Of a DNA stretch of 22,902 bases, positions 800 through 22,566 are shown piece after piece. The stretch lies in the IMG/VR virus record IMGVR_UViG_3300033170_000462; one strand, written 5' to 3'. The notes under the pieces were generated by a model. The model was not told the DNA's origin, made no database searches, and saw nothing but the letters and a program-made list of their open reading frames with translations. The DNA comes from an uncultured virus (IMG/VR IMGVR_UViG_3300033170_000462) (lineage: Duplodnaviria; Heunggongvirae; Uroviricota; Caudoviricetes). The position numbers were made by a program, and so were the translations under genes. The stretch's first letter is position 1; every line of letters begins with the position of its first letter.

Positions 800-838
800 A
801 CGGCAACTCCTTGCTCAAAAGGGTGAAAAAACGATGAC

Positions 839-862
839 TTCAGTCTTCAGCCTGCAGCCTGC
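839..862 (+). repeat. heptamer tandem repeat (TTCAGYC)n
   Basis: ttcagtc ttcagcc tgcagcc, overlapping the gpI stop codon. Confidence 0.7.
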
Positions 863-10731: not shown

Positions 10732-11100
10732 TCAAGTCCCCTTTCGCTTTTCAAGGCTGTTTACAAGCTTGGCAAATTCACTTTCATCCATATCCGCAGT
10801 AACACGTAAAAGGCTCAACACACTTAAAGCCGGTCTCTTGTTTATTAGGTTCTTCATGTTGACATTGATTTCTTCATTGATCTGTGTCTCGCGGTTGGCT
10901 GCGGCAACCAAATTATTCCCATCGATACTGAGAAATTCTTGTAGTTTTAACACCGCCTCCACGCGAGGTGGGTTTTTTCGACCATGCTCGATGTCCGAAA
11001 TGTAACTCACTGCCAAACCCGAAACTTCAGACAATTCACGCAGCGTTTTCCTCTCCTTCTTTCGAGCATCCCTCAACATTTGCCCGAACCGGCCCGCCAT
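10732..11100 (-). CDS. XRE-family HTH transcriptional regulator
   Basis: FGQMLRDARKKERKTLRELSEVSGLAVSYISDIEHGRKNPP; AGGAGG RBS before ATG 11100. Confidence 0.92.
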   Translation of the reverse strand: MAGRFGQMLRDARKKERKTLRELSEVSGLAVSYISDIEHGRKNPPRVEAVLKLQEFLSIDGNNLVAAANRETQINEEINVNMKNLINKRPALSVLSLLRVTADMDESEFAKLVNSLEKRKGT

Positions 11101-11160
11101 AGCTTCCTCCTTGGCTCGTTGTCCCCCTGAATTTTGCATACTGGATTTCGGCTTCATTAA

Positions 11161-11211
11161 ATTTTACGCCACCAACAAGAGTAAAATACGCTTTTGTTTT
11201 GGGAATGTCAA
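11161..11211 (-). promoter_or_regulatory. sigma70-like promoter with overlapping palindromic operator
   Basis: TTGACA (11211-11206), 17 nt, TATTTT (11188-11183); inverted repeat ATTTTAC-N13-GTAAAAT at 11161-11187. Confidence 0.6.
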
Positions 11212-11347
11212 CCCAGTTTTTCGCCGTTTTTTAGAGTAAAGGTGCCCGGCGTTTTTCTAAAGTTTTTTGCGGGGTTTTTCCTGCTCAAGTGATTTCATCT
11301 GCAGCAGGGTCGCCGCAAGGTGCTGGATACGCGAAAACGTCAGCAAC

Positions 11348-11380
11348 AAAAAAAGCCCCGTCCTATAAAAGGACGGGGCT
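11348..11380 (-). terminator. intrinsic terminator downstream of SDH protease gene
   Basis: Minus strand GCCCCGTCCT-tttat-AGGACGGGGC followed by T7. Confidence 0.85.
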
Positions 11381-11456
11381 AAAAAGGCAAAATATTCAGT
11401 GTTTAAACCATTTGACTCATTCGAATTTTTGGAATCTGGTTGCCGATGACGCCTTG

Positions 11457-12437
11457 TTAGGCTGGAAGGGTTGGAAATTCTTCTGATTGCTGGTGAATAC
11501 TCTCTGGTAATTCGCCGCAGCTATTTCCGTCTGGCGCCGCAAAATTTCCCCCATCAGGTCCTGCCTCACGGGCTTCATGGTTTTCCTCCTCGTTGTTATC
11601 TTCTGACTCTGACAACCAAACGTTCAAAACAGAGTCGCATGGGTCCTTAACATGCTCCTCCAGCAGCAACTCAAGTACTGTCTCAGTTTCATTAGGCTGC
11701 CTAACATTTCCAAAAAGCTTTTTCGCCTCTTTAAAGTTTATCACAAATCCGTGGGATGGATAGCCAACGGTAAGATTTGTTACTGCATCGCTTTTGTTGG
11801 TTAAAAGCGAGCCATATGCCTGCGTAATTGCTAGCGCGCGATTAACTTCTCCTAGCCTGAGTGGGTCCAATTGTGCGGCAATGGGCGACATAACCCCAAC
11901 CGCTAGGTTGGTTGCGATCTCTGCCGCTGTTTTTGTTTTTATAGAATCTCCGCTATTTCTTTTAATATTAATAAAAAAGTGCTCGAACATTGAAAAGGTA
12001 GCAGTTTGCAAGCTAGTAAGCGCTTGAAGGTAAATCAAGCCAGACTCAGATGATAACAACTCATCAGGTTTTGAAAGCTGAATATCAATTGGCCCGAATT
12101 CGCCTTGGGCCCCCATCACAATCTGGTCTGCACCTAAAGCGATAAGGGTTCCCGCGCTTTTGCAAATACCAAAAACATATATGGTAAAGATTTTGTAATA
12201 TTTTTTGAAAAGGTCTGCGATTAGATACGCGGCATTGGGATCTCCACCATAGGTGCACAATAATAGGCTGGCGTTTGGCCTTTTGCACGATATACGGCTG
12301 AAGTTATCATACATTTGTTTTGCGGCTGCTCGACTGATATCTCCGTTTAATAGAAACAGATCGGAATCTGTCTCAGCAGAGACATGACGTGCATACTCTT
12401 TGATTTTGGCTACCCTCATTTTTGCTTCTTCTTGCAT
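11457..12437 (-). CDS. SDH family Clp-fold serine proteinase (SDH_sah/S49-like)
   Basis: TYGGD..AAY.IA, KSAGTLIALGAD.IVMG..GEFGPIDIQ, GYPSHGFVI; GGAGG RBS before ATG 12437; AT-rich relative to flanks. Confidence 0.85.
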   Translation of the reverse strand: MQEEAKMRVAKIKEYARHVSAETDSDLFLLNGDISRAAAKQMYDNFSRISCKRPNASLLLCTYGGDPNAAYLIADLFKKYYKIFTIYVFGICKSAGTLIALGADQIVMGAQGEFGPIDIQLSKPDELLSSESGLIYLQALTSLQTATFSMFEHFFINIKRNSGDSIKTKTAAEIATNLAVGVMSPIAAQLDPLRLGEVNRALAITQAYGSLLTNKSDAVTNLTVGYPSHGFVINFKEAKKLFGNVRQPNETETVLELLLEEHVKDPCDSVLNVWLSESEDNNEEENHEAREAGPDGGNFAAPDGNSCGELPESIHQQSEEFPTLPA

Positions 12438-12547
12438 TAACTCCTCCAAACAAAAAACAAAATCCGCCCTTCCAGGGGCGGGTTGCGGAGGTACAAGTAT
12501 TTTGAATGATTAATACAACCTAAATCAAATTGAAGTCAAGCGGTTTT

Positions 12548-12859
12548 TCAAAACAACCCCATCTGCCGAGGGTCCACGCCATGCACCCGCTCATAGGTGT
12601 TATTCCGGCCCAAAAACTCAACCAGCTCATCAAATCGAACGCGCCGTGACCGGCGCAGCATGTAGGAATCGAGACTGCAGGGGCAGGTAGGCTGCCCCGT
12701 GTCCGGATCGCGCTCGTAGGCGGCGACCAGGCGCCAGAAGGTGCGGTCGGAGACGCCCAGAATGGCCTGCACTTCGCCCGGGGCGTAGCTGGATTTTTTC
12801 GGCAACCCGGCCGCGCGCAGCATGCCCAGCAGGCGTTGTTCGGCCAGTTCGTGATTCAT
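12548..12859 (-). CDS. HTH DNA-binding protein, putative middle/late transcription regulator
   Basis: SYAPGEVQAILGVSDRTFWRLV (MerR/excisionase-like HTH); sits at the end of the early region, where Mu-like phages carry Mor/C activators; GGAGG RBS. Confidence 0.7.
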   Translation of the reverse strand: MNHELAEQRLLGMLRAAGLPKKSSYAPGEVQAILGVSDRTFWRLVAAYERDPDTGQPTCPCSLDSYMLRRSRRVRFDELVEFLGRNNTYERVHGVDPRQMGLF

Positions 12860-12876
12860 AATCCCTCCCGGATAAA

Positions 12877-12955
12877 GGCAGGCTGAAGGCTGAAGTCCGA
12901 AGGCTGAAGACAAAGCCAGCTTCCTTCAGTCTTCAGCCTTCAGTCTTCAGTCTGT
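12877..12955. repeat. inverted pair of heptamer arrays (GGCTGAA)n ... (TTCAGYC)n
   Basis: ggcaggctgaaggctgaagtccgaaggctgaagac ... ccttcagtcttcagccttcagtcttcagtctg; can form a long hairpin. Confidence 0.8.
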
Positions 12956-13739
12956 TCCCAAATTTCCGCGCCAGCTTGCGCGCCAGTTCAGCGCCCTGGC
13001 GGCGCTGGTCGGCATCCTCCGGCGGTTCCGCCAGCCGTGGCTGAGAGGGCCGGCGTGGCATGTGCGCCCAGATGGCCTTGGGTTCCGGCCATTTTTCAAC
13101 GGACTTTAAAAGGCCGGAAAAGGCCGCTTTAACCCGCTGTGAATCCACGGCCTCGATGCCGCAACTGCCGGCCATGACGTGGTGCCAGACATCGGCGGTG
13201 CGGGTGATCACGTCGGCACCGGGCGCGCCATCCAGCCCCATGACCACCAGAGCGGCCAGGCCGTCGGCGATGCGGCTGCGCAGCCAGTCGCCGGCGCCCC
13301 AGGCCGCCAGATCGGCGATGGCGCGGGCGCGTTTGCCGGTGGGTGGGTCGGTGGCGGCTCTTGATGCCCGATCGGGCGATGGGGAAACCACAACATTGGA
13401 GCTCACTGTCTCGATCACCGATTGCAAATAGCGATGGTCCTTGAGGGGCTTAAATGTGCCTTGGTCACGCTTACGGCGCAGAGCCTCGACTGTCTCGCCC
13501 AGCGCCATAACTAAAATGCGAGGTTCAATATCCAATGCCAATACTTCCTGAGCTAACCGCAGGGCTCGATTGTGAGCTAGGTCGCGGGTGGCTGGTCGAA
13601 AACATCCAAGGTATGATGCCAGCGGGCCGAAGAGGGGGCCTGACTTGGCCAGAAGAATAAGTAGTTCTCGGCCATCCGCGTCGGATGTGTAAGCTTCTAT
13701 GCTGTTACTACTGTGACAAATTGGACAACGTAGTTTCAT
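12933..13739 (-). CDS. Mu-like prophage hypothetical protein with N-terminal CxxC
   Basis: Probable start MKLRCPICHS at ATG 13739 with AAGGGA RBS; YLGCFRP...L...RALRL and PLKDHRYL motifs recall Mu-like early proteins. Confidence 0.75.
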   Translation of the reverse strand: MKLRCPICHSSNSIEAYTSDADGRELLILLAKSGPLFGPLASYLGCFRPATRDLAHNRALRLAQEVLALDIEPRILVMALGETVEALRRKRDQGTFKPLKDHRYLQSVIETVSSNVVVSPSPDRASRAATDPPTGKRARAIADLAAWGAGDWLRSRIADGLAALVVMGLDGAPGADVITRTADVWHHVMAGSCGIEAVDSQRVKAAFSGLLKSVEKWPEPKAIWAHMPRRPSQPRLAEPPEDADQRRQGAELARKLARKFGNRLKTEG

Positions 13740-13743
13740 GATT

Positions 13744-13821
13744 CCCTTGCTTTGCATCGCTATACAGAGCCTCGCCAAGCCACACTCGGCCTTGCAAAAC
13801 ATAGCATTGCGTGGCATTGCC
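13744..13821 (-). ncRNA. 5-nt-periodic array 2, (NGY-NN)n, candidate guide RNA
   Basis: GGC aa TGC ca CGC aa TGC ta TGT tt TGC aa GGC cg AGT gt GGC tt GGC ga GGC tc TGT at AGC ga TGC aa AGC aa GGG; 15 of 16 triplets are NGY. The periodicity is seen directly; RNA function is inferred. Confidence 0.7.
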
Positions 13822-13901
13822 GTTTGAATCGGCTGCTCATCAGGCCCAAAGCACCACCTCCGGGCGACCGGCCCCCGCAGGGGCACGGTTTCGCTTGAAA
13901 C
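13822..13901 (-). ncRNA. hammerhead ribozyme (type II topology) between the arrays
   Basis: GC-GAAA-CCG.GCCCC[ugcg]GGGGC-CGG-UC / GCCCGGAG[guggug]CUUUGGGC-CUGAUGA-GC; complete core, GUC triplet at 13868-13866. Confidence 0.85.
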
Positions 13902-13974
13902 ACCTTGCTTTGCATTACCGCGCTTGGCTTTGCCCGGCCAAAGCGCACAGTGCGATGCCATGGCTTGCCTAGCC
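13902..13974 (-). ncRNA. 5-nt-periodic array 1, (NGY-NN)n, candidate guide RNA
   Basis: GGC ta GGC aa GCC at GGC at CGC ac TGT gc GCT tt GGC cg GGC aa AGC ca AGC gc GGT aa TGC aa AGC aa GGT; 13 of 15 triplets are NGY; begins 10 nt after the stop of the RAMP-like gene. Confidence 0.7.
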
Positions 13975-13984
13975 AGATTTCGTA

Positions 13985-14557
13985 TCAACTGCCTTTATTT
14001 TCCTTCCACTCGACCACTGCAAACTTGCCGAACGGGCCGCGCCGGTCCGGTCGGAAATCGCCAAGTCCAACCTTCTTCCCAGCGTCGTCGACGATTTGCC
14101 GCACTAGAGCGGGACTGAACATCTCGGTATCAATATCCAATGTGAAGGAAAGTTTCCATTCGTCGAGTCTTGGCCTGTGGCACATGATGCGGCCACCAGT
14201 AGAGGGGATCACCACGCTGCGACTATCGACCTCGAACATTTTGGTCCCCAAAGGGCAGGCCAGATCGAGCAGGGCCACTCCGGCAGGAATCAGGCTGGAG
14301 CGCAGGGTGGTTACTTTACTTTTGCCACATTTGTGAAATTTCCCTGCGGCGATGATGGCGGCAAAGATGTTCGGTCCTGGGATAAAGAGGTTGCCCTTGT
14401 CATCGGCATACACCTTTTTCTCTGCACTTTGCCTGGGCGTCCCTTTTGCCCCTAGAGTCGTGCCAGATGTTCCGTTGGAAACTTTCACCTGGGCCTCTTC
14501 GGTAAATCGATTCATCAGCAGCGGAGTAGTTCCTTTGATCTTTACGGTGACAAGCAT
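13985..14557 (-). CDS. stand-alone RAMP/Cas7-like protein (candidate Vipr-like RNA-guided effector), 190 aa
   Basis: AGGAGG RBS, start MLVTVKIKGTTPLLMN; LFIPGPNIFAAI (cf. RAMP IPGSSxKG); C-terminal Gly-rich loop VGLGDFRPDRRGPFGKF. Fold inferred from motifs only. Confidence 0.65.
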   Translation of the reverse strand: MLVTVKIKGTTPLLMNRFTEEAQVKVSNGTSGTTLGAKGTPRQSAEKKVYADDKGNLFIPGPNIFAAIIAAGKFHKCGKSKVTTLRSSLIPAGVALLDLACPLGTKMFEVDSRSVVIPSTGGRIMCHRPRLDEWKLSFTLDIDTEMFSPALVRQIVDDAGKKVGLGDFRPDRRGPFGKFAVVEWKENKGS

Positions 14558-14559
14558 AG

Positions 14560-14736
14560 TTAATCCTCCTTTTGATGTTTGATCTTGAGTTCCGAAGCGA
14601 TACCCAGCGCAAATAAGCATACGCGCAATTCGTCCAAGGCGTCCTGGACACGGTTCAGCAAAGACGGCGTTGGGGGTTTTGCGGAATGCTGGCGATCGGG
14701 AAAGGGAATGACGCGGGTGGGTTGTCTGCTTTTCAT
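14560..14736 (-). CDS. 58-aa ORF under C4 control (icd/ant-like position)
   Basis: MKSRQPTRVIPFPDRQ...; AAGGAG RBS overlaps the b2 target; stop 2 nt before the RAMP-like gene start. Confidence 0.6.
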   Translation of the reverse strand: MKSRQPTRVIPFPDRQHSAKPPTPSLLNRVQDALDELRVCLFALGIASELKIKHQKED

Positions 14737-14744
14737 GACACGCT

Positions 14745-14783
14745 CCTTGTGAGGGGTTTCGTCATGCCGTTTTGCGCTGCCAA
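14745..14783 (-). promoter_or_regulatory. C4 downstream target a2/b2
   Basis: a2 TTGGCAG (14783-14777) and b2 TCACAAGG (14752-14745), complementary to C4 segments CTGCCAA and CCTTGTGA. Confidence 0.75.
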
Positions 14784-14791
14784 ACGCAAAA

Positions 14792-14863
14792 GGGCGACCG
14801 TGCGGGTTGGCAGACCGGTCACAAGGTACCCGGCGAGCCCGAAGGCTCCCCGCACGGCCGCCC
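14792..14863 (-). ncRNA. C4-type antisense RNA
   Basis: Cloverleaf: closing stem GGGCGGCCGTGCGG/CCGCACGGTCGCCC, GAGCC-TTCG-GGCTC hairpin, CCGG..CCTTGTGA..CCGG (b') and CTGCCAA (a'); flanked by complementary targets on both sides as in P1/P7 c4. Confidence 0.85.
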
Positions 14864-14892
14864 AGACGAAACGGAGCAATGCCATGCTGTGT

Positions 14893-14985
14893 GGACACAA
14901 AAATACCGCCAAATGCTCTGGGCGGTTGTGTCCGCCTCGTGAAACGGGCTGCCAAACCCGATCGCTGGATTTTGCCAGCGACAGA
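14893..14985 (-). promoter_or_regulatory. c4-a1b1-like leader with terminator-like hairpin
   Basis: a1 TTGGCAG (14955-14949) in CGGG..CCCG stem; b1 TCACGAGG (14942-14935); GGACACAA-CCGCC...GGCGGT-ATTTTTGTGTCC. Confidence 0.75.
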
Positions 14986-14988
14986 TTT

Positions 14989-15017
14989 ACGGTAGCCCAT
15001 GTGCGGTTTTGTGTCAA
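14989..15017 (-). promoter_or_regulatory. putative sigma70 promoter of C4 cassette
   Basis: TTGACA (15017-15012), 17 nt, TACCGT. Confidence 0.5.
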
Positions 15018-15026
15018 GCTCTGCCA

Positions 15027-15461
15027 TCATTCCCTTCTTTTCCCCCGCCGTTTCTGGTCGTAAACCAGCGCCGCCACGATCCGCCGCAGCTGATCGGCCG
15101 TGCAGAAGCGCACCAGGTCGATGCCGAACATGTGTTTGGCCATGGCGTCCGCGTAGGCCCAAGGCCGCCCGGCTTCGGCCAGCAGCGCCTCAATCTTGGC
15201 CAGGTAGCCGTCCTTGTCCACCGGCGCCGCGCCGGCAAAGGGCCGTTTCCCGGCCCGCTTGGGCGCGCCTTTCTTGCGCCATACCCCGGCGGCCAGGGCC
15301 TTGGCTTCCAGATCGGCCAGCAGGGCGCCTGCGTCGCGGTCGGACAGCTGCTTGCTGCTGGTTACGCCGTAACCGGCCAGCACCGCCCGGTAATCGTCGT
15401 CATTCAGCCCCAGGGCGCCCTTGACGGTATGAATCAGCTTGATCTGCGTCGGGTTGGCCAT
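15027..15461 (-). CDS. gemA: GemA/gp16 family regulatory protein (DUF1018)
   Basis: IKLIH..K.ALGLNDDDYRAVL...GVTSSKQL, KIEALL...RPWAYADAMAKHMFG, QLRRIVAAL. Confidence 0.88.
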   Translation of the reverse strand: MANPTQIKLIHTVKGALGLNDDDYRAVLAGYGVTSSKQLSDRDAGALLADLEAKALAAGVWRKKGAPKRAGKRPFAGAAPVDKDGYLAKIEALLAEAGRPWAYADAMAKHMFGIDLVRFCTADQLRRIVAALVYDQKRRGKRRE

Positions 15462-15750
15462 GGCCGTCTCCTTGGGGCTGCAGGTATTGGGCGCTGGCGG
15501 CGGCAAACCGCTCGCGGGCGCGCTTGAATTCATCGGCGGCCGCCAGAAAGGCCCGACGGCCTTCCGGGGTGCGGGTATCCTGAGCGGCCATGCGGGCGCC
15601 GGCGGCATCCATCTCGGCCAGGGCCTGTTCGGTTTCCAGCTCGTATTCCAGCCAGCGCAGCCGCTCCTGCAGGGCGACGCGGTTGTGTCGGCAAAGGGCG
15701 CGCAGGGCGCGTTCCAGGGCCGGGTTGGCGGTCTGTTCCGGGTGGCTCAT
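15400..15750 (-). CDS. hypothetical helical protein
   Basis: Start MSHPEQT overlaps upstream stop; GGAGGT RBS. Confidence 0.65.
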   Translation of the reverse strand: MSHPEQTANPALERALRALCRHNRVALQERLRWLEYELETEQALAEMDAAGARMAAQDTRTPEGRRAFLAAADEFKRARERFAAASAQYLQPQGDGHGQPDADQADSYRQGRPGAE

Positions 15751-16364: not shown

Positions 16365-16384
16365 GTCTTCAGCCTTCAGCCTGC
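16365..16384 (+). repeat. heptamer repeat (TTCAGCC)n
   Basis: gtcttcagccttcagcctgc. Confidence 0.65.
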
Positions 16385-16389
16385 TTCTT

Positions 16390-16456
16390 GTGGCTGCTCA
16401 TCAGTGCCGGGCCGCCACGCCCGGCAGACCGGCCCCTTGCGGGGCGCGGTTTCGCA
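16390..16456 (-). ncRNA. hammerhead ribozyme (type II topology, pseudoknot)
   Basis: UGC-GAAA-CCG.GCCCC[gcaa]GGGGC-CGG-UC / UGCCGGGC[guggcg]GCCCGGCA-CUGAUGA-GCA-GCCAC; loop GUGGC pairs with 3' GCCAC. Confidence 0.9.
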
Positions 16457-16627
16457 TCAGCACAGGGCGAGTTCCTGCTCGCCGGTATCCATATTCTCCA
16501 AAACCTCCACCTTCACCGCCTCGCCGAAGCTGTCGGCGAGGGGCATTGCGTCGGGAAACTCGGCCAGGGCCTGGCGCAGAGCGCCCACCGTCTCGATGCC
16601 GACGATCTCGCGCAACAGCTTCAGCAT
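16457..16627 (-). CDS. 56-aa hypothetical protein (MLKLLREIVGIETVGALRQALAEFPDAMPL...)
   Basis: Hand-translated; below track cutoff; CAGGT RBS-like; overlaps upstream stop; stop abuts the ribozyme. Confidence 0.6.
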   Translation of the reverse strand: MLKLLREIVGIETVGALRQALAEFPDAMPLADSFGEAVKVEVLENMDTGEQELALC

Positions 16628-16857
16628 GGCGCACCTGCCTCGGCTTCAGTCTTCAGCCTTCGGCCTTCAGCCTGCCTTTCGGCATGGCTGGCCGCGATGA
16701 GGGCCGGCCGGCGGCAGTTGGGGCAGCGCAGGTATTTGATGGGGCGGCTGAAGCCGGCGGGGCCGGTCGGGTAGCTGAGGCGGTGGCGCTGCTCGACAAA
16801 AAACCCGACCTTGCAGCCCGGCTGGCTGCAGAATGCGGTGACCAGATAGGGCATCAC
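16621..16857 (-). CDS. small hypothetical protein with two Cys pairs
   Basis: C...GC ... CPNC; start overlaps the gam stop; 3' end contains heptamer repeats. Confidence 0.55.
   Translation of the reverse strand: MMPYLVTAFCSQPGCKVGFFVEQRHRLSYPTGPAGFSRPIKYLRCPNCRRPALIAASHAERQAEGRRLKTEAEAGAPC
16642..16676 (+). repeat. heptamer repeat (TTCAGYC)n
   Basis: ggcttcagtcttcagccttcggccttcagcctgcc. Confidence 0.7.
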
Positions 16858-21992: not shown

Positions 21993-22024
21993 GCCTTTTT
22001 CTCCATGGACTGCTCCTTGTAGAT

Positions 22025-22090
22025 TGGCTGCTCGTCAGGACCGGGGCGCCGCCCCCGGCCTACCGGCCCCGGTTGGGGCGCGGTTTCGCT
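22025..22090 (-). ncRNA. hammerhead ribozyme (type II topology) upstream of transposase
   Basis: GC-GAAA-CCG.GCCCC[aacc]GGGGC-CGG-UA / GGCCGGGG[gcggcg]CCCCGGUC-CUGACGA-GC-AGCC; GUA triplet at 22063-22061. Confidence 0.85.
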
Positions 22091-22566
22091 CAACATTTCT
22101 TCTCCCAGGCCTTGATCAGGCGGTCGATCTCTGCCGTCTGATGCCGCATCTCGGCCATCTGTTCCGTCAGCCGCTGTTTCTGGCTGCGCAAGGCGTCCGG
22201 GCCGCCCAGGGCGAACATCCCCACCGGCTGGCACACCACCTCCAGCGGCCGTGTGCTGCCCGTCGCCCGGCAGAAGGCCGGCGCGTACTCCAGCGGAAAG
22301 CGGTGTCCCTCCTTGCTTTCGCTGGTCCAGGCGTCCAGCATGAAGCGGCTGATCTCCTGGTCCGTCAGTTCGCTCATCTTGGCCGCAATCTCCCAGCGGG
22401 AGAGCGCGCTGCCCTTGATCGCCTCGTACAGGGCGTTGCGCACCAAGGCCCGCATGTTCAGCGCCCCCGGCGCGTCGCGCAGTCCCAACAGCATCCGCTC
22501 CTCCTCTTTCTTCAGCACGTCCAGCAAACTCAGTTGATGGGGATCGGTGGTCTTCTGTCTGCCCAT
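22090..22566 (-). CDS. phage regulatory protein (CII-like)
   Basis: GGAGG RBS; SRWEIAAKMSELT...IS..MLDAWTSESKE.HRFP....AFC.ATG. Confidence 0.75.
   Translation of the reverse strand: MGRQKTTDPHQLSLLDVLKKEEERMLLGLRDAPGALNMRALVRNALYEAIKGSALSRWEIAAKMSELTDQEISRFMLDAWTSESKEGHRFPLEYAPAFCRATGSTRPLEVVCQPVGMFALGGPDALRSQKQRLTEQMAEMRHQTAEIDRLIKAWEKKC

What the first reader, a model, noticed from the sequence alone, without database searches (positions are those of the whole stretch)
13822..13901. Hammerhead ribozyme fills the spacer between the two arrays
The 80-nt spacer holds a complete hammerhead core: GAAA (13892-13889), stem III, GUC (predicted cut between 13866 and 13865), 8-bp stem I and CUGAUGA (13843-13837). 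Stem II is only 2 bp but may be extended by GUUUCAA/UUCAAAC. Self-cleavage would separate the two arrays into individual RNAs without a Cas6-type nuclease, leaving a 3' hairpin on guide 1 and a 5' hairpin on guide 2 (inference).
Basis: partly seen in the sequence, partly recalled or inferred. Interest (0 to 1): 0.88.

Follow-up and report, generated by a model that had tools for sequence, protein, structure and literature searches.

The report
Hammerhead ribozyme splitting phage VIPR guides
A self-cleaving hammerhead RNA sits between two guide-RNA arrays of a phage-borne VIPR system (a CRISPR-like gene silencer first described in 2026); this layout is already reported in a preprint, so it is a well-supported new example, not a new kind of thing.

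Summary
Rfam calls a complete type II hammerhead at 13827-13896 on the minus strand (51.9 bits, cut-off 37), with the predicted cut between 13866 and 13865. The "two arrays" are real: 15 five-base NGY-NN units on each side, 13974-13900 and 13821-13747. The gene just upstream (13985-14557) is a Vipr protein. It matches the solved SUSP1 Vipr by sequence (E 2.9e-7 alone, 2.4e-11 as a profile) and has a Cas7/Csm3-like fold. Read with the published 1-nt-skip code, both arrays match conserved sites in gemA and in a neighbouring early gene of other Mu-like phages, and they spare the phage's own copies. It is in print as "hammerhead ribozyme-interspersed arrays" of VIPR (bioRxiv 10.64898/2026.04.26.720920). 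Two points are added here. The layout is rare in this Vipr clade: 2 twin contigs of 176 loci. Type II hammerheads also sit at the same gene junctions in Mu-like phage records in which no Vipr was found, so the ribozyme was probably captured rather than built for the guides. Cleavage itself was not tested.

The parts
13827..13896 (-). Type II hammerhead ribozyme; predicted self-cleavage 3' of C13866 (between 13866 and 13865)
   Evidence: Rfam RF02276, 51.9 bits (cut-off 37), E 3.1e-8. All core bases are present. Four stem I pairs change on both sides among the phage's three copies.
13900..13974 (-). vrRNA 1 repeat tract: 15 pentamers, 13 fitting NGY-NN, ending TGCAA AGCAA GG
   Evidence: Its NN letters read with a 1-nt skip match a gemA site in other phages: 23 of 24 in L184 and 20 of 24 in L269.
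13747..13821 (-). vrRNA 2 repeat tract: 15 of 15 NGY-NN pentamers, ending TGCAA AGCAA then GG; the tail overlaps the ribosome-binding site of the next gene
   Evidence: run of 15; the maximum in 200 shuffles was 8. At least 80% NN match in 20 of 80 loci homologous to the downstream gene.
13985..14557 (-). vipr gene, 190 aa, Cas7-like RAMP
   Evidence: phmmer against PDB 36pp 'SUSP1 Vipr protein' gives E 2.9e-7; the profile gives E 2.4e-11. AF2 model pLDDT 83.9. Top Foldseek hits are Csm3/Cas7, E 2.7e-6. No Pfam or PADLOC match.
13903..13915 (-). Conserved 3' end of array 1 (ATGCAAAGCAAGG), identical to 13745-13757 at the end of array 2
   Evidence: repeat family D16. The array ends printed (70 of 224) mostly end in a GCAA..CAAGG-type tail.
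13822..13828 (-). UUCAAAC, possible outer extension of stem II; pairs with GUUUCAA 13901-13895 at 6 of 7 positions
   Evidence: Read. A similar imperfect outer helix can be drawn for the copy at 22022-22091. This is inference.
12933..13739 (-). Downstream phage early gene (268 aa, N-terminal zinc ribbon, phrog_2161 + phrog_8159). Not a conserved VIPR partner. Its orthologues in other phages carry the vrRNA 2 target.
15027..15608 (-). gemA homologue (likely true start at M50, about 15461). Its orthologues in other phages carry the vrRNA 1 target.
   Evidence: Pfam GemA, E 8.1e-18.
14789..14868 (-). C4-type antisense RNA upstream of a 58-aa ORF (14560-14736) and vipr
   Evidence: Rfam RF01695, 59.7 bits. 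Also found upstream of vipr in L028 and L031. ORF translated.
16388..16457 (-). Second type II hammerhead of the same phage; starts at the stop codon of a 56-aa ORF, with no pentamer array beside it
   Evidence: 70 bits.
22022..22091 (-). Third type II hammerhead, just upstream of the MuA-like transposase gene, with no array beside it
   Evidence: 46.9 bits.

Best explanation
The window is the early-to-head part of a Mu-like provirus. Between gemA and the next early gene it carries a minimal VIPR module, all on the minus strand: vipr (13985-14557), guide array 1 (13974-13900), a type II hammerhead (13896-13827) and guide array 2 (13821-13747). Shown here: the ribozyme matches the family model with an intact core; the arrays are 5-nt periodic (NGY fixed, NN variable); the protein is a homologue of the solved SUSP1 Vipr; such arrays accompany this protein family almost everywhere; and the NN letters of both arrays, read with the published 1-nt-skip rule, match conserved in-frame sites in gemA and in the phrog_2161 gene of other Mu-like phages, but not the phage's own copies. 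Inferred: the region is transcribed as one RNA. The hammerhead then cuts itself after C13866. Guide 1 is released with a 2',3'-cyclic phosphate behind the stem III hairpin. Guide 2 starts with a 5'-OH and the stem I hairpin. Vipr protomers coat each pentamer tract, and the two complexes bind the early operons of rival Mu-like phages and block them. The hammerhead was most likely already present at this junction as one of the phage's intercistronic ribozymes, and now doubles as the separator of the two guides.
For: Ribozyme: (51.9 bits against 37). The core, stems and pseudoknot are read. In one search, 95.8% of cells are paired across the phage's three copies and 4 stem I pairs change on both sides.

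Arrays: (runs of 15 and 8; the shuffle maximum was 8).

Vipr: SUSP1 Vipr, PDB 36pp; Csm3/Cas7 fold, probability 1.0, TM about 0.5; invariant C-terminal Gly-rich loop.

Co-occurrence: 167 of 176 Vipr-homologue loci have an NGYNN array within 250 nt of the gene, against 0 of 160 control loci.

Targets:
- Searches gave exact matches of the first 10 units in IMG/VR.
- One search shows that these lie in frame in homologues of the two genes flanking the module.
- In some searches, vrRNA 2 reaches at least 80% NN match in 20 of 80 phrog_2161-type loci with skip 1 and in 0 with skip 0, 2 or 3.
- The best of 100 permuted guides was 19 of 26, against 23 of 26 observed.
- vrRNA 1 reaches 23 of 24 in L184 and 20 of 24 in L269, against a permuted maximum of 18.
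- The best self matches are 18 of 26 and 15 of 24, and the phage's own site scores 15 of 26.

Precedent: hammerhead-interspersed vrRNA arrays in VIPR types I and V.

Capture:
- Model R1 finds type II hammerheads upstream of the phrog_2161 gene in 4 of 80 loci and upstream of gemA in 25 of 80 loci, none with arrays.
- Three of the records behind those loci hold no Vipr match, one of them 93% complete, yet carry 1-3 Rfam-grade hammerheads.
Against: - No cleavage or RNA-end data exist for this locus.
- Only 2 of 176 related Vipr loci (the twin contigs L016 and L017) have a hammerhead between arrays, so the family does not need one.
- Hammerheads at the same junctions in records without a Vipr match mean that this one may serve mRNA processing first.
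- The 5' end of guide 1 and the 3' end of guide 2 have no ribozyme and remain undefined.
- No conserved accessory (vap) gene was found.
- The first repeat letter is G in only 7 and 5 of 15 units, so the repeat is a relaxed NGY rather than the characterised GGY.
- Target matches fade after about 10-11 units.
- The 80 phrog_2161 loci were fetched partly through a peptide pattern that overlaps the target site, so 20 of 80 is not an unbiased frequency.
- No permuted-pattern control was run on the whole collection.
Confidence: 0.85

Rival explanations
1. The hammerhead is mainly one of the phage's generic intercistronic ribozymes. It cuts the long early transcript so that the downstream gene gets its own mRNA, and the VIPR arrays merely landed beside it. 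Guide separation would then be a by-product. This differs from the best explanation in emphasis and does not exclude it.
For: The provirus has three type II hammerheads, two of them with no array nearby. Hammerheads lie directly upstream of the orthologous gene in L185, L186, L193 and L232, and upstream of gemA in 25 of 80 loci, all without arrays. Three of those phage records have no Vipr match. In print, prophages carry multiple hammerheads flanking genes (PMC3088659), and ribozymes are most strongly associated with genes of Mu-like phages for unknown reasons (PMC10085705).
Against: In the window, and independently in L016/L017, an array lies on each side of the ribozyme, so cleavage necessarily defines one end of each guide. 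The VIPR preprint reports such arrays as a recurrent architecture.
Confidence: 0.3
2. The guides are matured by Vipr itself or by host RNases, as must happen in the many relatives without ribozymes. The hammerhead would then be dispensable or inactive here.
For: 174 of 176 related loci have arrays but no hammerhead (Rfam run on 136 of them). In several of the array ends printed a GC-rich hairpin follows the array. This hammerhead scores lowest but one of the phage's three, and its stem I carries two G-U pairs.
Against: All core positions and the pseudoknot are intact and the score is well above the cut-off. Type II hammerheads from prophage arrangements cleaved in vitro and in vivo (PMC3088659).
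Confidence: 0.1
3. The period-5 tracts are not guides; they would be the chance or compositional periodicity of a GC-rich spacer, or a coding extension of the downstream ORF. The hammerhead would then simply lie in a long intergenic region.
For: The ORF 12933-13988 stays open through both tracts and the ribozyme. Standard repeat finders see nothing.
Against: A run of 15 against a shuffle maximum of 8. Arrays accompany the Vipr family in 167 of 176 loci and in 0 of 160 controls. The target matches are specific to one skip rule. Homologues of the downstream protein all start at the ATG at 13739.
Confidence: 0.02

Closest known systems
VIPR 'ribozyme-vrRNA arrays' (hammerhead-interspersed vrRNA arrays, shown for types I and V; bioRxiv 10.64898/2026.04.26.720920, text and legends of figs S19-S20)
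   Same: A Vipr (ancestral RAMP) gene, pentamer-coded guide RNAs and a hammerhead between adjacent guides, carried by a phage. The guides fit the 1-nt-skip code and point at rival phages.
   Different: The repeat is the relaxed NGY/NN form rather than GGY/NN. No vap gene was found. There are only two guides and one ribozyme. The host element is a Mu-like provirus that has two further hammerheads outside the module. The type (I-VII) could not be assigned because the figures and data files of the preprint could not be seen.
Multiple type II hammerheads flanking genes in prophages (Perreault et al. 2011, PMC3088659), and the reported enrichment of self-cleaving ribozymes near genes of Mu-like phages (PMC10085705, one passage)
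   Same: Type II topology, 2-bp stem II, a loop I/3' tail pseudoknot, several copies on one polycistronic transcript of a prophage, each placed right after a stop codon or before a gene.
   Different: Here one copy is flanked on both sides by guide-RNA arrays, which gives it a defined non-coding product. Those papers state that the purpose of the prophage arrangements is unknown.
Type II VIPR of Escherichia phage SUSP1 (Vipr structure PDB 36pp; bioRxiv 10.64898/2026.04.26.720920 and .720927)
   Same: Homologous protein (E 2.9e-7, including the G-loop GxGDxRP..FGxF), guides of 9-16 pentamers, conserved 3' end, 1-nt-skip reading with the skipped base at codon wobble positions.
   Different: SUSP1 guides are separated without ribozymes and end in a structured pseudoknot tail. 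Here the conserved tail is a short GCAA..CAAGG motif. SUSP1 has a vap1 partner gene.
CRISPR pre-crRNA processing by Cas6-type endonucleases (textbook knowledge, not tested here)
   Same: One precursor is cut into unit guides that keep a hairpin handle.
   Different: Here the cut would be made by the RNA itself; there are no CRISPR repeats and no Cas6.

Membership tests
Hammerhead ribozyme, type II (Rfam RF02276) | Score at or above the curated gathering threshold of the covariance model | tested here: met
   51.9 bits against 37, E 3.1e-8, full-length match; found again.
Hammerhead ribozyme, type II (Rfam RF02276) | Conserved catalytic core (CUGANGA, GAAA, cleavage triplet NUH) and three stems, with stems I and III closed and stem II open | tested here: met
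   CUGAUGA 13843-13837, GAAA 13892-13889, GUC 13868-13866; stem I 8 bp, stem III 9 bp with one bulge, stem II 2 bp and open.
Hammerhead ribozyme, type II (Rfam RF02276) | Loop I / 3' tail pseudoknot typical of type II | tested here: met
   UGGU 13856-13853 with GCCG 13833-13830. The pseudoknot helix is 80% paired across the three copies of the phage. The feature is described in PMC3088659.
Hammerhead ribozyme, type II (Rfam RF02276) | Site-specific self-cleavage | not testable with these tools
   The runs laid are contigs, which cannot show RNA ends.
VIPR system | Vipr protein: RAMP fold with G-loop, homologous to described Vipr proteins | tested here: met
   SUSP1 Vipr (PDB 36pp), E 2.9e-7 and 2.4e-11. 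Foldseek top hits are Csm3/Cas7. The loop GLGD.RP.R.GPFG.F is invariant.
VIPR system | vrRNA: tandem pentamers with a fixed GGY (or related) trinucleotide and variable NN, next to vipr | tested here: met
   Two arrays of 15 units, NGY fixed. Canonical GGY occurs in only 7 and 5 of 15 units. The papers list relaxed forms: YNNNG and WGT/NN, TGH/NN.
VIPR system | Guides specify targets through NN letters with a 1-nt skip | tested here: met
   Skip 1 gives 24 of 84 and 2 of 81 loci at 80% or more; skips 0, 2 and 3 give 0. This is computational only.
VIPR system | Accessory vap gene beside vipr ('typically' present) | tested here: not met
   The 268-aa downstream gene has a homologue in only 2 of 176 related loci, and the 58-aa upstream ORF in 1 of 176. 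No neighbour is shared by more than 24 of 176 loci, apart from spurious ORFs that overlap the arrays. The paper says 'typically', so this is not an exclusion.
VIPR system | vrRNAs expressed and bound by Vipr; DNA binding and repression | not testable with these tools
VIPR ribozyme-vrRNA array | Hammerhead between adjacent vrRNA segments on the same strand | tested here: met
   Array 1 ends at 13900, the hammerhead spans 13896-13827 and array 2 starts at 13821, all on the minus strand.

The most novel reading that the evidence does not exclude
Ribozyme-interspersed VIPR arrays arise by capture. Mu-like phages already punctuate their early operon with type II hammerheads, and a vipr-plus-guide module that lands at such a junction gets its guides separated for free. 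In both instances found in this Vipr clade (this window and L016/L017), the layout is vipr - guide - hammerhead - guide - phage gene, at a junction (before the phrog_2161 gene, before gemA) that carries a bare hammerhead in relatives where no Vipr was found. The second guide's conserved tail then serves as the ribosome-binding site of the very gene whose orthologues it silences in rival phages. This could couple guide loading to expression of the phage's own, mismatched copy.
Probability: 0.4. Interest if true: 0.6.

Novelty: new member of a known kind. Interest (0 to 1): 0.5.

Why it matters
VIPR systems were first described in 2026, and how their guide RNAs are cut to size is barely documented. 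In what I could read, the only statement on ribozymes is one sentence and two figure legends of one preprint. This locus gives a compact, testable case of about 1 kb: one protein, two guides and one ribozyme. Its predicted natural targets lie in gemA and the next early gene of rival Mu-like phages, and the phage's own copies escape by mismatches. It also suggests a purpose for at least some of the hammerheads enriched in Mu-like phages, an enrichment the literature calls unexplained, and a simple evolutionary route by which ribozymes and guide arrays came together.

Tried and rejected
- **Standard repeat finders.** Exact-seed repeats and Tandem Repeats Finder do not detect the arrays. A direct alignment of the two flanks shows only 44 of 88 identical columns beyond the shared 13-mer, so the flanks are not a simple duplication.
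- **Family libraries.** Pfam and PADLOC give nothing for the 190-aa protein; in PHROGs it matches only phrog_4652 of unknown function.
- **The 268-aa downstream gene as a vap.** Rejected: it is not syntenic with vipr (2 of 176 loci). The 'orf60' query in the script was cut in the wrong frame; it was redone correctly as the 58-aa ORF (1 of 176).
- **Neighbour clustering.** The largest cluster (56 loci) consists of spurious opposite-strand ORFs that overlap the arrays.
- **My regular-expression hammerhead scan.** Too crude; its hits outside L016/L017 were not confirmed by Rfam.
- **Promoter and terminator scan of 12800-15100.** Nothing above chance on the minus strand.
- **RNA evidence.**
  - Of 8 runs listed, 4 were laid, all as contigs.
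  - Pieces from 3 runs of 2 studies end at 13858, 13862 and 13869, near the predicted cut.
  - Three of the four runs are flagged as probably DNA.
  - Contigs cannot show RNA ends.
  - The one clear RNA contig runs 8 nt past the site.
  - I count this as no evidence either way.
- **RNA fold of 13740-13984.** Stems I and III are kept, but the two arrays are also paired with each other (z -2.0). I draw nothing from that.
- **Controls not run.** No permuted or other-skip patterns were run on the whole viral collection; only local permutations were done.
- **Earlier notes of this scan.** Nothing for this genome or this protein.

Full report
**What is at the coordinates.** Rfam 15 at gathering thresholds over the whole window gives four matches:
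- Hammerhead_II (RF02276) at 13827-13896 (-), 51.9 bits, cut-off 37, E 3.1e-8, full model length.
- Hammerhead_II at 16388-16457 (-), 70 bits.
- Hammerhead_II at 22022-22091 (-), 46.9 bits.
- A C4-type antisense RNA at 14789-14868 (-).

Perreault et al. 2011 (PMC3088659; passages read) describe this pseudoknot as the usual brace of type II hammerheads, and note that stem II is commonly only two base pairs. The proposed GUUUCAA/UUCAAAC extension pairs at 6 of 7 positions and may exist, but the ribozyme does not need it. Across the three copies in this phage, 95.8% of cells pair and four stem I pairs change on both sides. Three related sequences are a small sample.

**The "two arrays" are real.** They are invisible to ordinary repeat finders. 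On the minus strand, the strand of the ribozyme and of all the genes, the downstream flank is 15 consecutive NGYNN pentamers (13821-13747). The upstream flank has 15 units, of which 13 fit (13974-13900). In 200 Markov shuffles of the window no run exceeded 8. Both arrays end in the same 13 bases, which is the only thing one search found (13745-13757 = 13903-13915).

**Context.** PHROGs identify a Mu-like provirus: MuA- and MuB-like transposition proteins, Gam, GemA (also Pfam), terminase, portal and protease, all on the minus strand. The window is the right-hand 22.9 kb of a 47,955-bp provirus record, and that record holds exactly these three hammerheads. The hammerhead lies in a 245-nt gap between a 190-aa gene (13985-14557) and a 268-aa gene whose true start is the ATG at 13739. 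GC is 0.49-0.58 over 13400-14750, against up to 0.70 in the flanking stretches.

**The 190-aa gene is a Vipr.**
- It has no Pfam or PADLOC match but has 1207 unnamed homologues.
- Its AlphaFold model (pLDDT 83.9, pTM 0.81) finds Csm3/Cas7 subunits of type III and type VII CRISPR complexes first (E 2.7e-6, probability 1.0, TM about 0.5).
- By sequence alone it matches PDB 36pp, 'SUSP1 Vipr protein' (E 2.9e-7; E 2.4e-11 with a profile of 33 homologues). The match includes the C-terminal glycine-rich loop, which is invariant in the family.

**Arrays travel with the protein.** I collected 176 related loci: 80 from IMG/VR, 16 from genomes and 80 from metagenomes; one of them, L100, is probably the window's own source contig. 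Of these, 167 have an NGYNN array within 250 nt of the gene. None of 160 control loci taken from the same kind of phages has one. Over 3701 units, position 2 is G in 95% and position 3 is C or T in 98%; both figures are partly by construction. The unconstrained positions read G 46% / T 28% at position 1 and are close to uniform at positions 4-5. The array ends printed (70 of 224) mostly close with a conserved GCAA..CAAGG tail. In several, that tail lies where the next gene's ribosome-binding site would be or is followed by a GC-rich hairpin.

**What is in print.**
- The preprint bioRxiv 10.64898/2026.04.26.720920 describes VIPR: a Vipr RAMP plus vrRNAs of GGY/NN pentamers that read DNA with a 1-nt skip between NN pairs. 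I read the outline, the whole Results, Methods sections 18 and 20, and figure legends; figures and data files were not visible.
[quoted passage not shown] S20). It also lists relaxed repeats (NNNGG, YNNNG, NNNNG).
- A later preprint (10.64898/2026.10.21.760802; passages) lists further non-canonical units such as WGT/NN and TGH/NN.
- The structural preprint (.720927) and the competition preprint (10.64898/2026.10.15.759431) contain no occurrence of 'hammerhead'.
- Earlier notes of this scan report another hammerhead-punctuated VIPR locus in a different genome. I did not check it.

**Are the arrays working guides?**
- I took the NN letters of the first ten units of each array, joined them with one free base, and scanned IMG/VR. 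Array 2 gave 4 exact hits (two pairs of near-identical contigs) and array 1 gave 1.
- All hits lie in frame in protein-coding genes, with the skipped base at the wobble position. The genes are homologues of the two genes that flank the module in the window: the phrog_2161-type gene for array 2 (site NHNYLKRVLE) and gemA for array 1 (site YKIITALRKQA).
- I then fetched 80 homologue loci of each gene by protein similarity and scored them with guides derived from the window by script.
- Array 2 (13 units) reaches at least 21 of 26 in 20 of 80 loci (maximum 23), always at the same site. The best of 100 unit-permuted guides was 19. With skips of 0, 2 or 3 bases no locus passes.
- Array 1 (12 units) reaches 20 of 24 in one of 80 loci and 23 of 24 in L184, against a permuted maximum of 18.
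- Cross-checks (each guide on the other gene's loci, and on the Vipr loci) stay within the permuted range.
- The best self-matches in the whole provirus are 18 of 26 and 15 of 24, and the phage's own copy of the array 2 site (DHRYLQSVIE) scores 15 of 26.
- Caveats: the phrog_2161 loci were fetched partly through a peptide pattern that overlaps the site, so the frequency is biased upward. Matches fade after 10-11 units. No collection-wide permuted control was run.

**How common is the ribozyme in such arrays?**
- Rfam at gathering thresholds on 136 of the 176 related loci and my own model R1, built from the phage's three copies, on all 176 find a hammerhead only in L016 and L017. These are twin contigs with the same coordinates and score. 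R1 also finds it in L100, which carries the window's own vipr sequence.
- In L016 the order is vipr - array - hammerhead - array - gemA.
- R1 is tuned to type II, so other topologies could be missed in the 40 loci not scanned with Rfam.
- The ribozyme is thus a rare way of separating guides in this clade.

**Where the ribozyme probably came from.**
- R1 finds type II hammerheads directly upstream of the phrog_2161-type gene in 4 of 80 loci (L185, L186, L193, L232) and within 300 nt upstream of gemA in 25 of 80 loci.
- None of these 160 loci has a pentamer array. In L193 and L232 the ribozyme starts at the stop codon of the preceding gene, as do the window's other two copies.
- The records behind L185, L193 and L232 (79%, 93% and 45% complete) hold no Vipr match but carry 1-3 hammerheads above the Rfam cut-off.
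- L193's phage is also one of the best predicted targets of array 2 (23 of 26).
- The literature already notes several hammerheads flanking genes in prophages and the strongest ribozyme-gene associations for Mu-like phages, 'biological reason still unknown' (PMC10085705, one passage).
- I therefore read the hammerhead at 13827-13896 as one of the phage's intercistronic ribozymes that now has a guide array on each side. Whether the module inserted around it or brought it along cannot be decided from these data.

**Mechanism, with its status.**
- Shown: ribozyme signature, arrays, Vipr homology, family-wide co-occurrence, code-specific target matches and self-avoidance.
- Inferred: co-transcription on the minus strand; self-cleavage after C13866; guide 1 ending in the stem III hairpin with a cyclic phosphate; guide 2 beginning with a 5'-OH and the stem I hairpin; Vipr coating of the tracts; repression of rival Mu-like phages' early operons.
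- Unknown: the 5' end of guide 1, which starts 11 nt after the vipr stop codon; the 3' end of guide 2, whose tail overlaps the ribosome-binding site of the next gene; and the promoter. A C4-type antisense RNA and a 58-aa ORF lie just upstream, and the simple promoter scan found nothing.
- RNA-labelled public runs gave only contigs and no usable ends.

**Verdict.** This is a new, unusually compact and testable member of a known kind, with added evidence on its targets and on the likely origin of the ribozyme.

Noticed in passing
window 14789-14868 (-), with the ORF 14560-14736 (-): A C4-type antisense RNA (Rfam RF01695, 59.7 bits) and a 58-aa ORF lie directly upstream of vipr. C4 also lies upstream of vipr in L028 and L031 (there with isrK in L031). 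This hints that an immI-like antisense switch controls the VIPR module.
   Followed up: partly
window 838-859 (-), 12881-12952 (both strands), 16367-16381 (-), 16644-16672 (-): Tandem 7-nt repeats (GGCTGAAG-type heptads) sit at intergenic junctions of the phage. At 12880-12953 they form a 25-nt inverted repeat across the end of the 268-aa gene. There are 59 matches with up to 1 mismatch, against 28.5 expected. Their function is unknown.
   Followed up: partly
window 16388-16457 (-) and 22022-22091 (-): Two more type II hammerheads lie on the early transcript. One starts at the stop codon of a 56-aa ORF. The other lies between a regulator-region gene and the MuA-like transposase gene. Neither has pentamer arrays.
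   Followed up: yes
window 13755-13895, contigs of runs X1 and X4: Two contigs match hammerhead plus array 2 at 99% or better but continue beyond 13895 into unrelated sequence that is not pentamer-periodic (9 and 23 letters seen). A close variant may carry this hammerhead and guide 2 behind a different upstream sequence.
   Followed up: no
L051 5266-5337; L108 2332-2605: tRNA genes lie among or just after the vrRNA arrays of two related Vipr loci, three in a row in L108. tRNA processing could be another way of cutting guides apart.
   Followed up: no
window 13742-13757 and related loci: The conserved array tail (..CAAGG) lies 5-9 nt before the start codon of the next gene in this window (before the 268-aa gene) and in several related loci printed, so it could double as a Shine-Dalgarno sequence.
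   Followed up: partly
window 11000-12500: A low-GC island (0.40-0.48, against up to about 0.69 in the neighbouring stretches) holds a ClpP/SDH-like protease gene (phrog_21683) beside two HTH regulator genes. It is probably another acquired cassette.
   Followed up: no
window 12933-13988 (-): The reading frame of the 268-aa gene stays open for 83 codons upstream, through both arrays and the ribozyme. Gene callers may therefore annotate a 351-aa protein that hides the RNA elements.
   Followed up: yes
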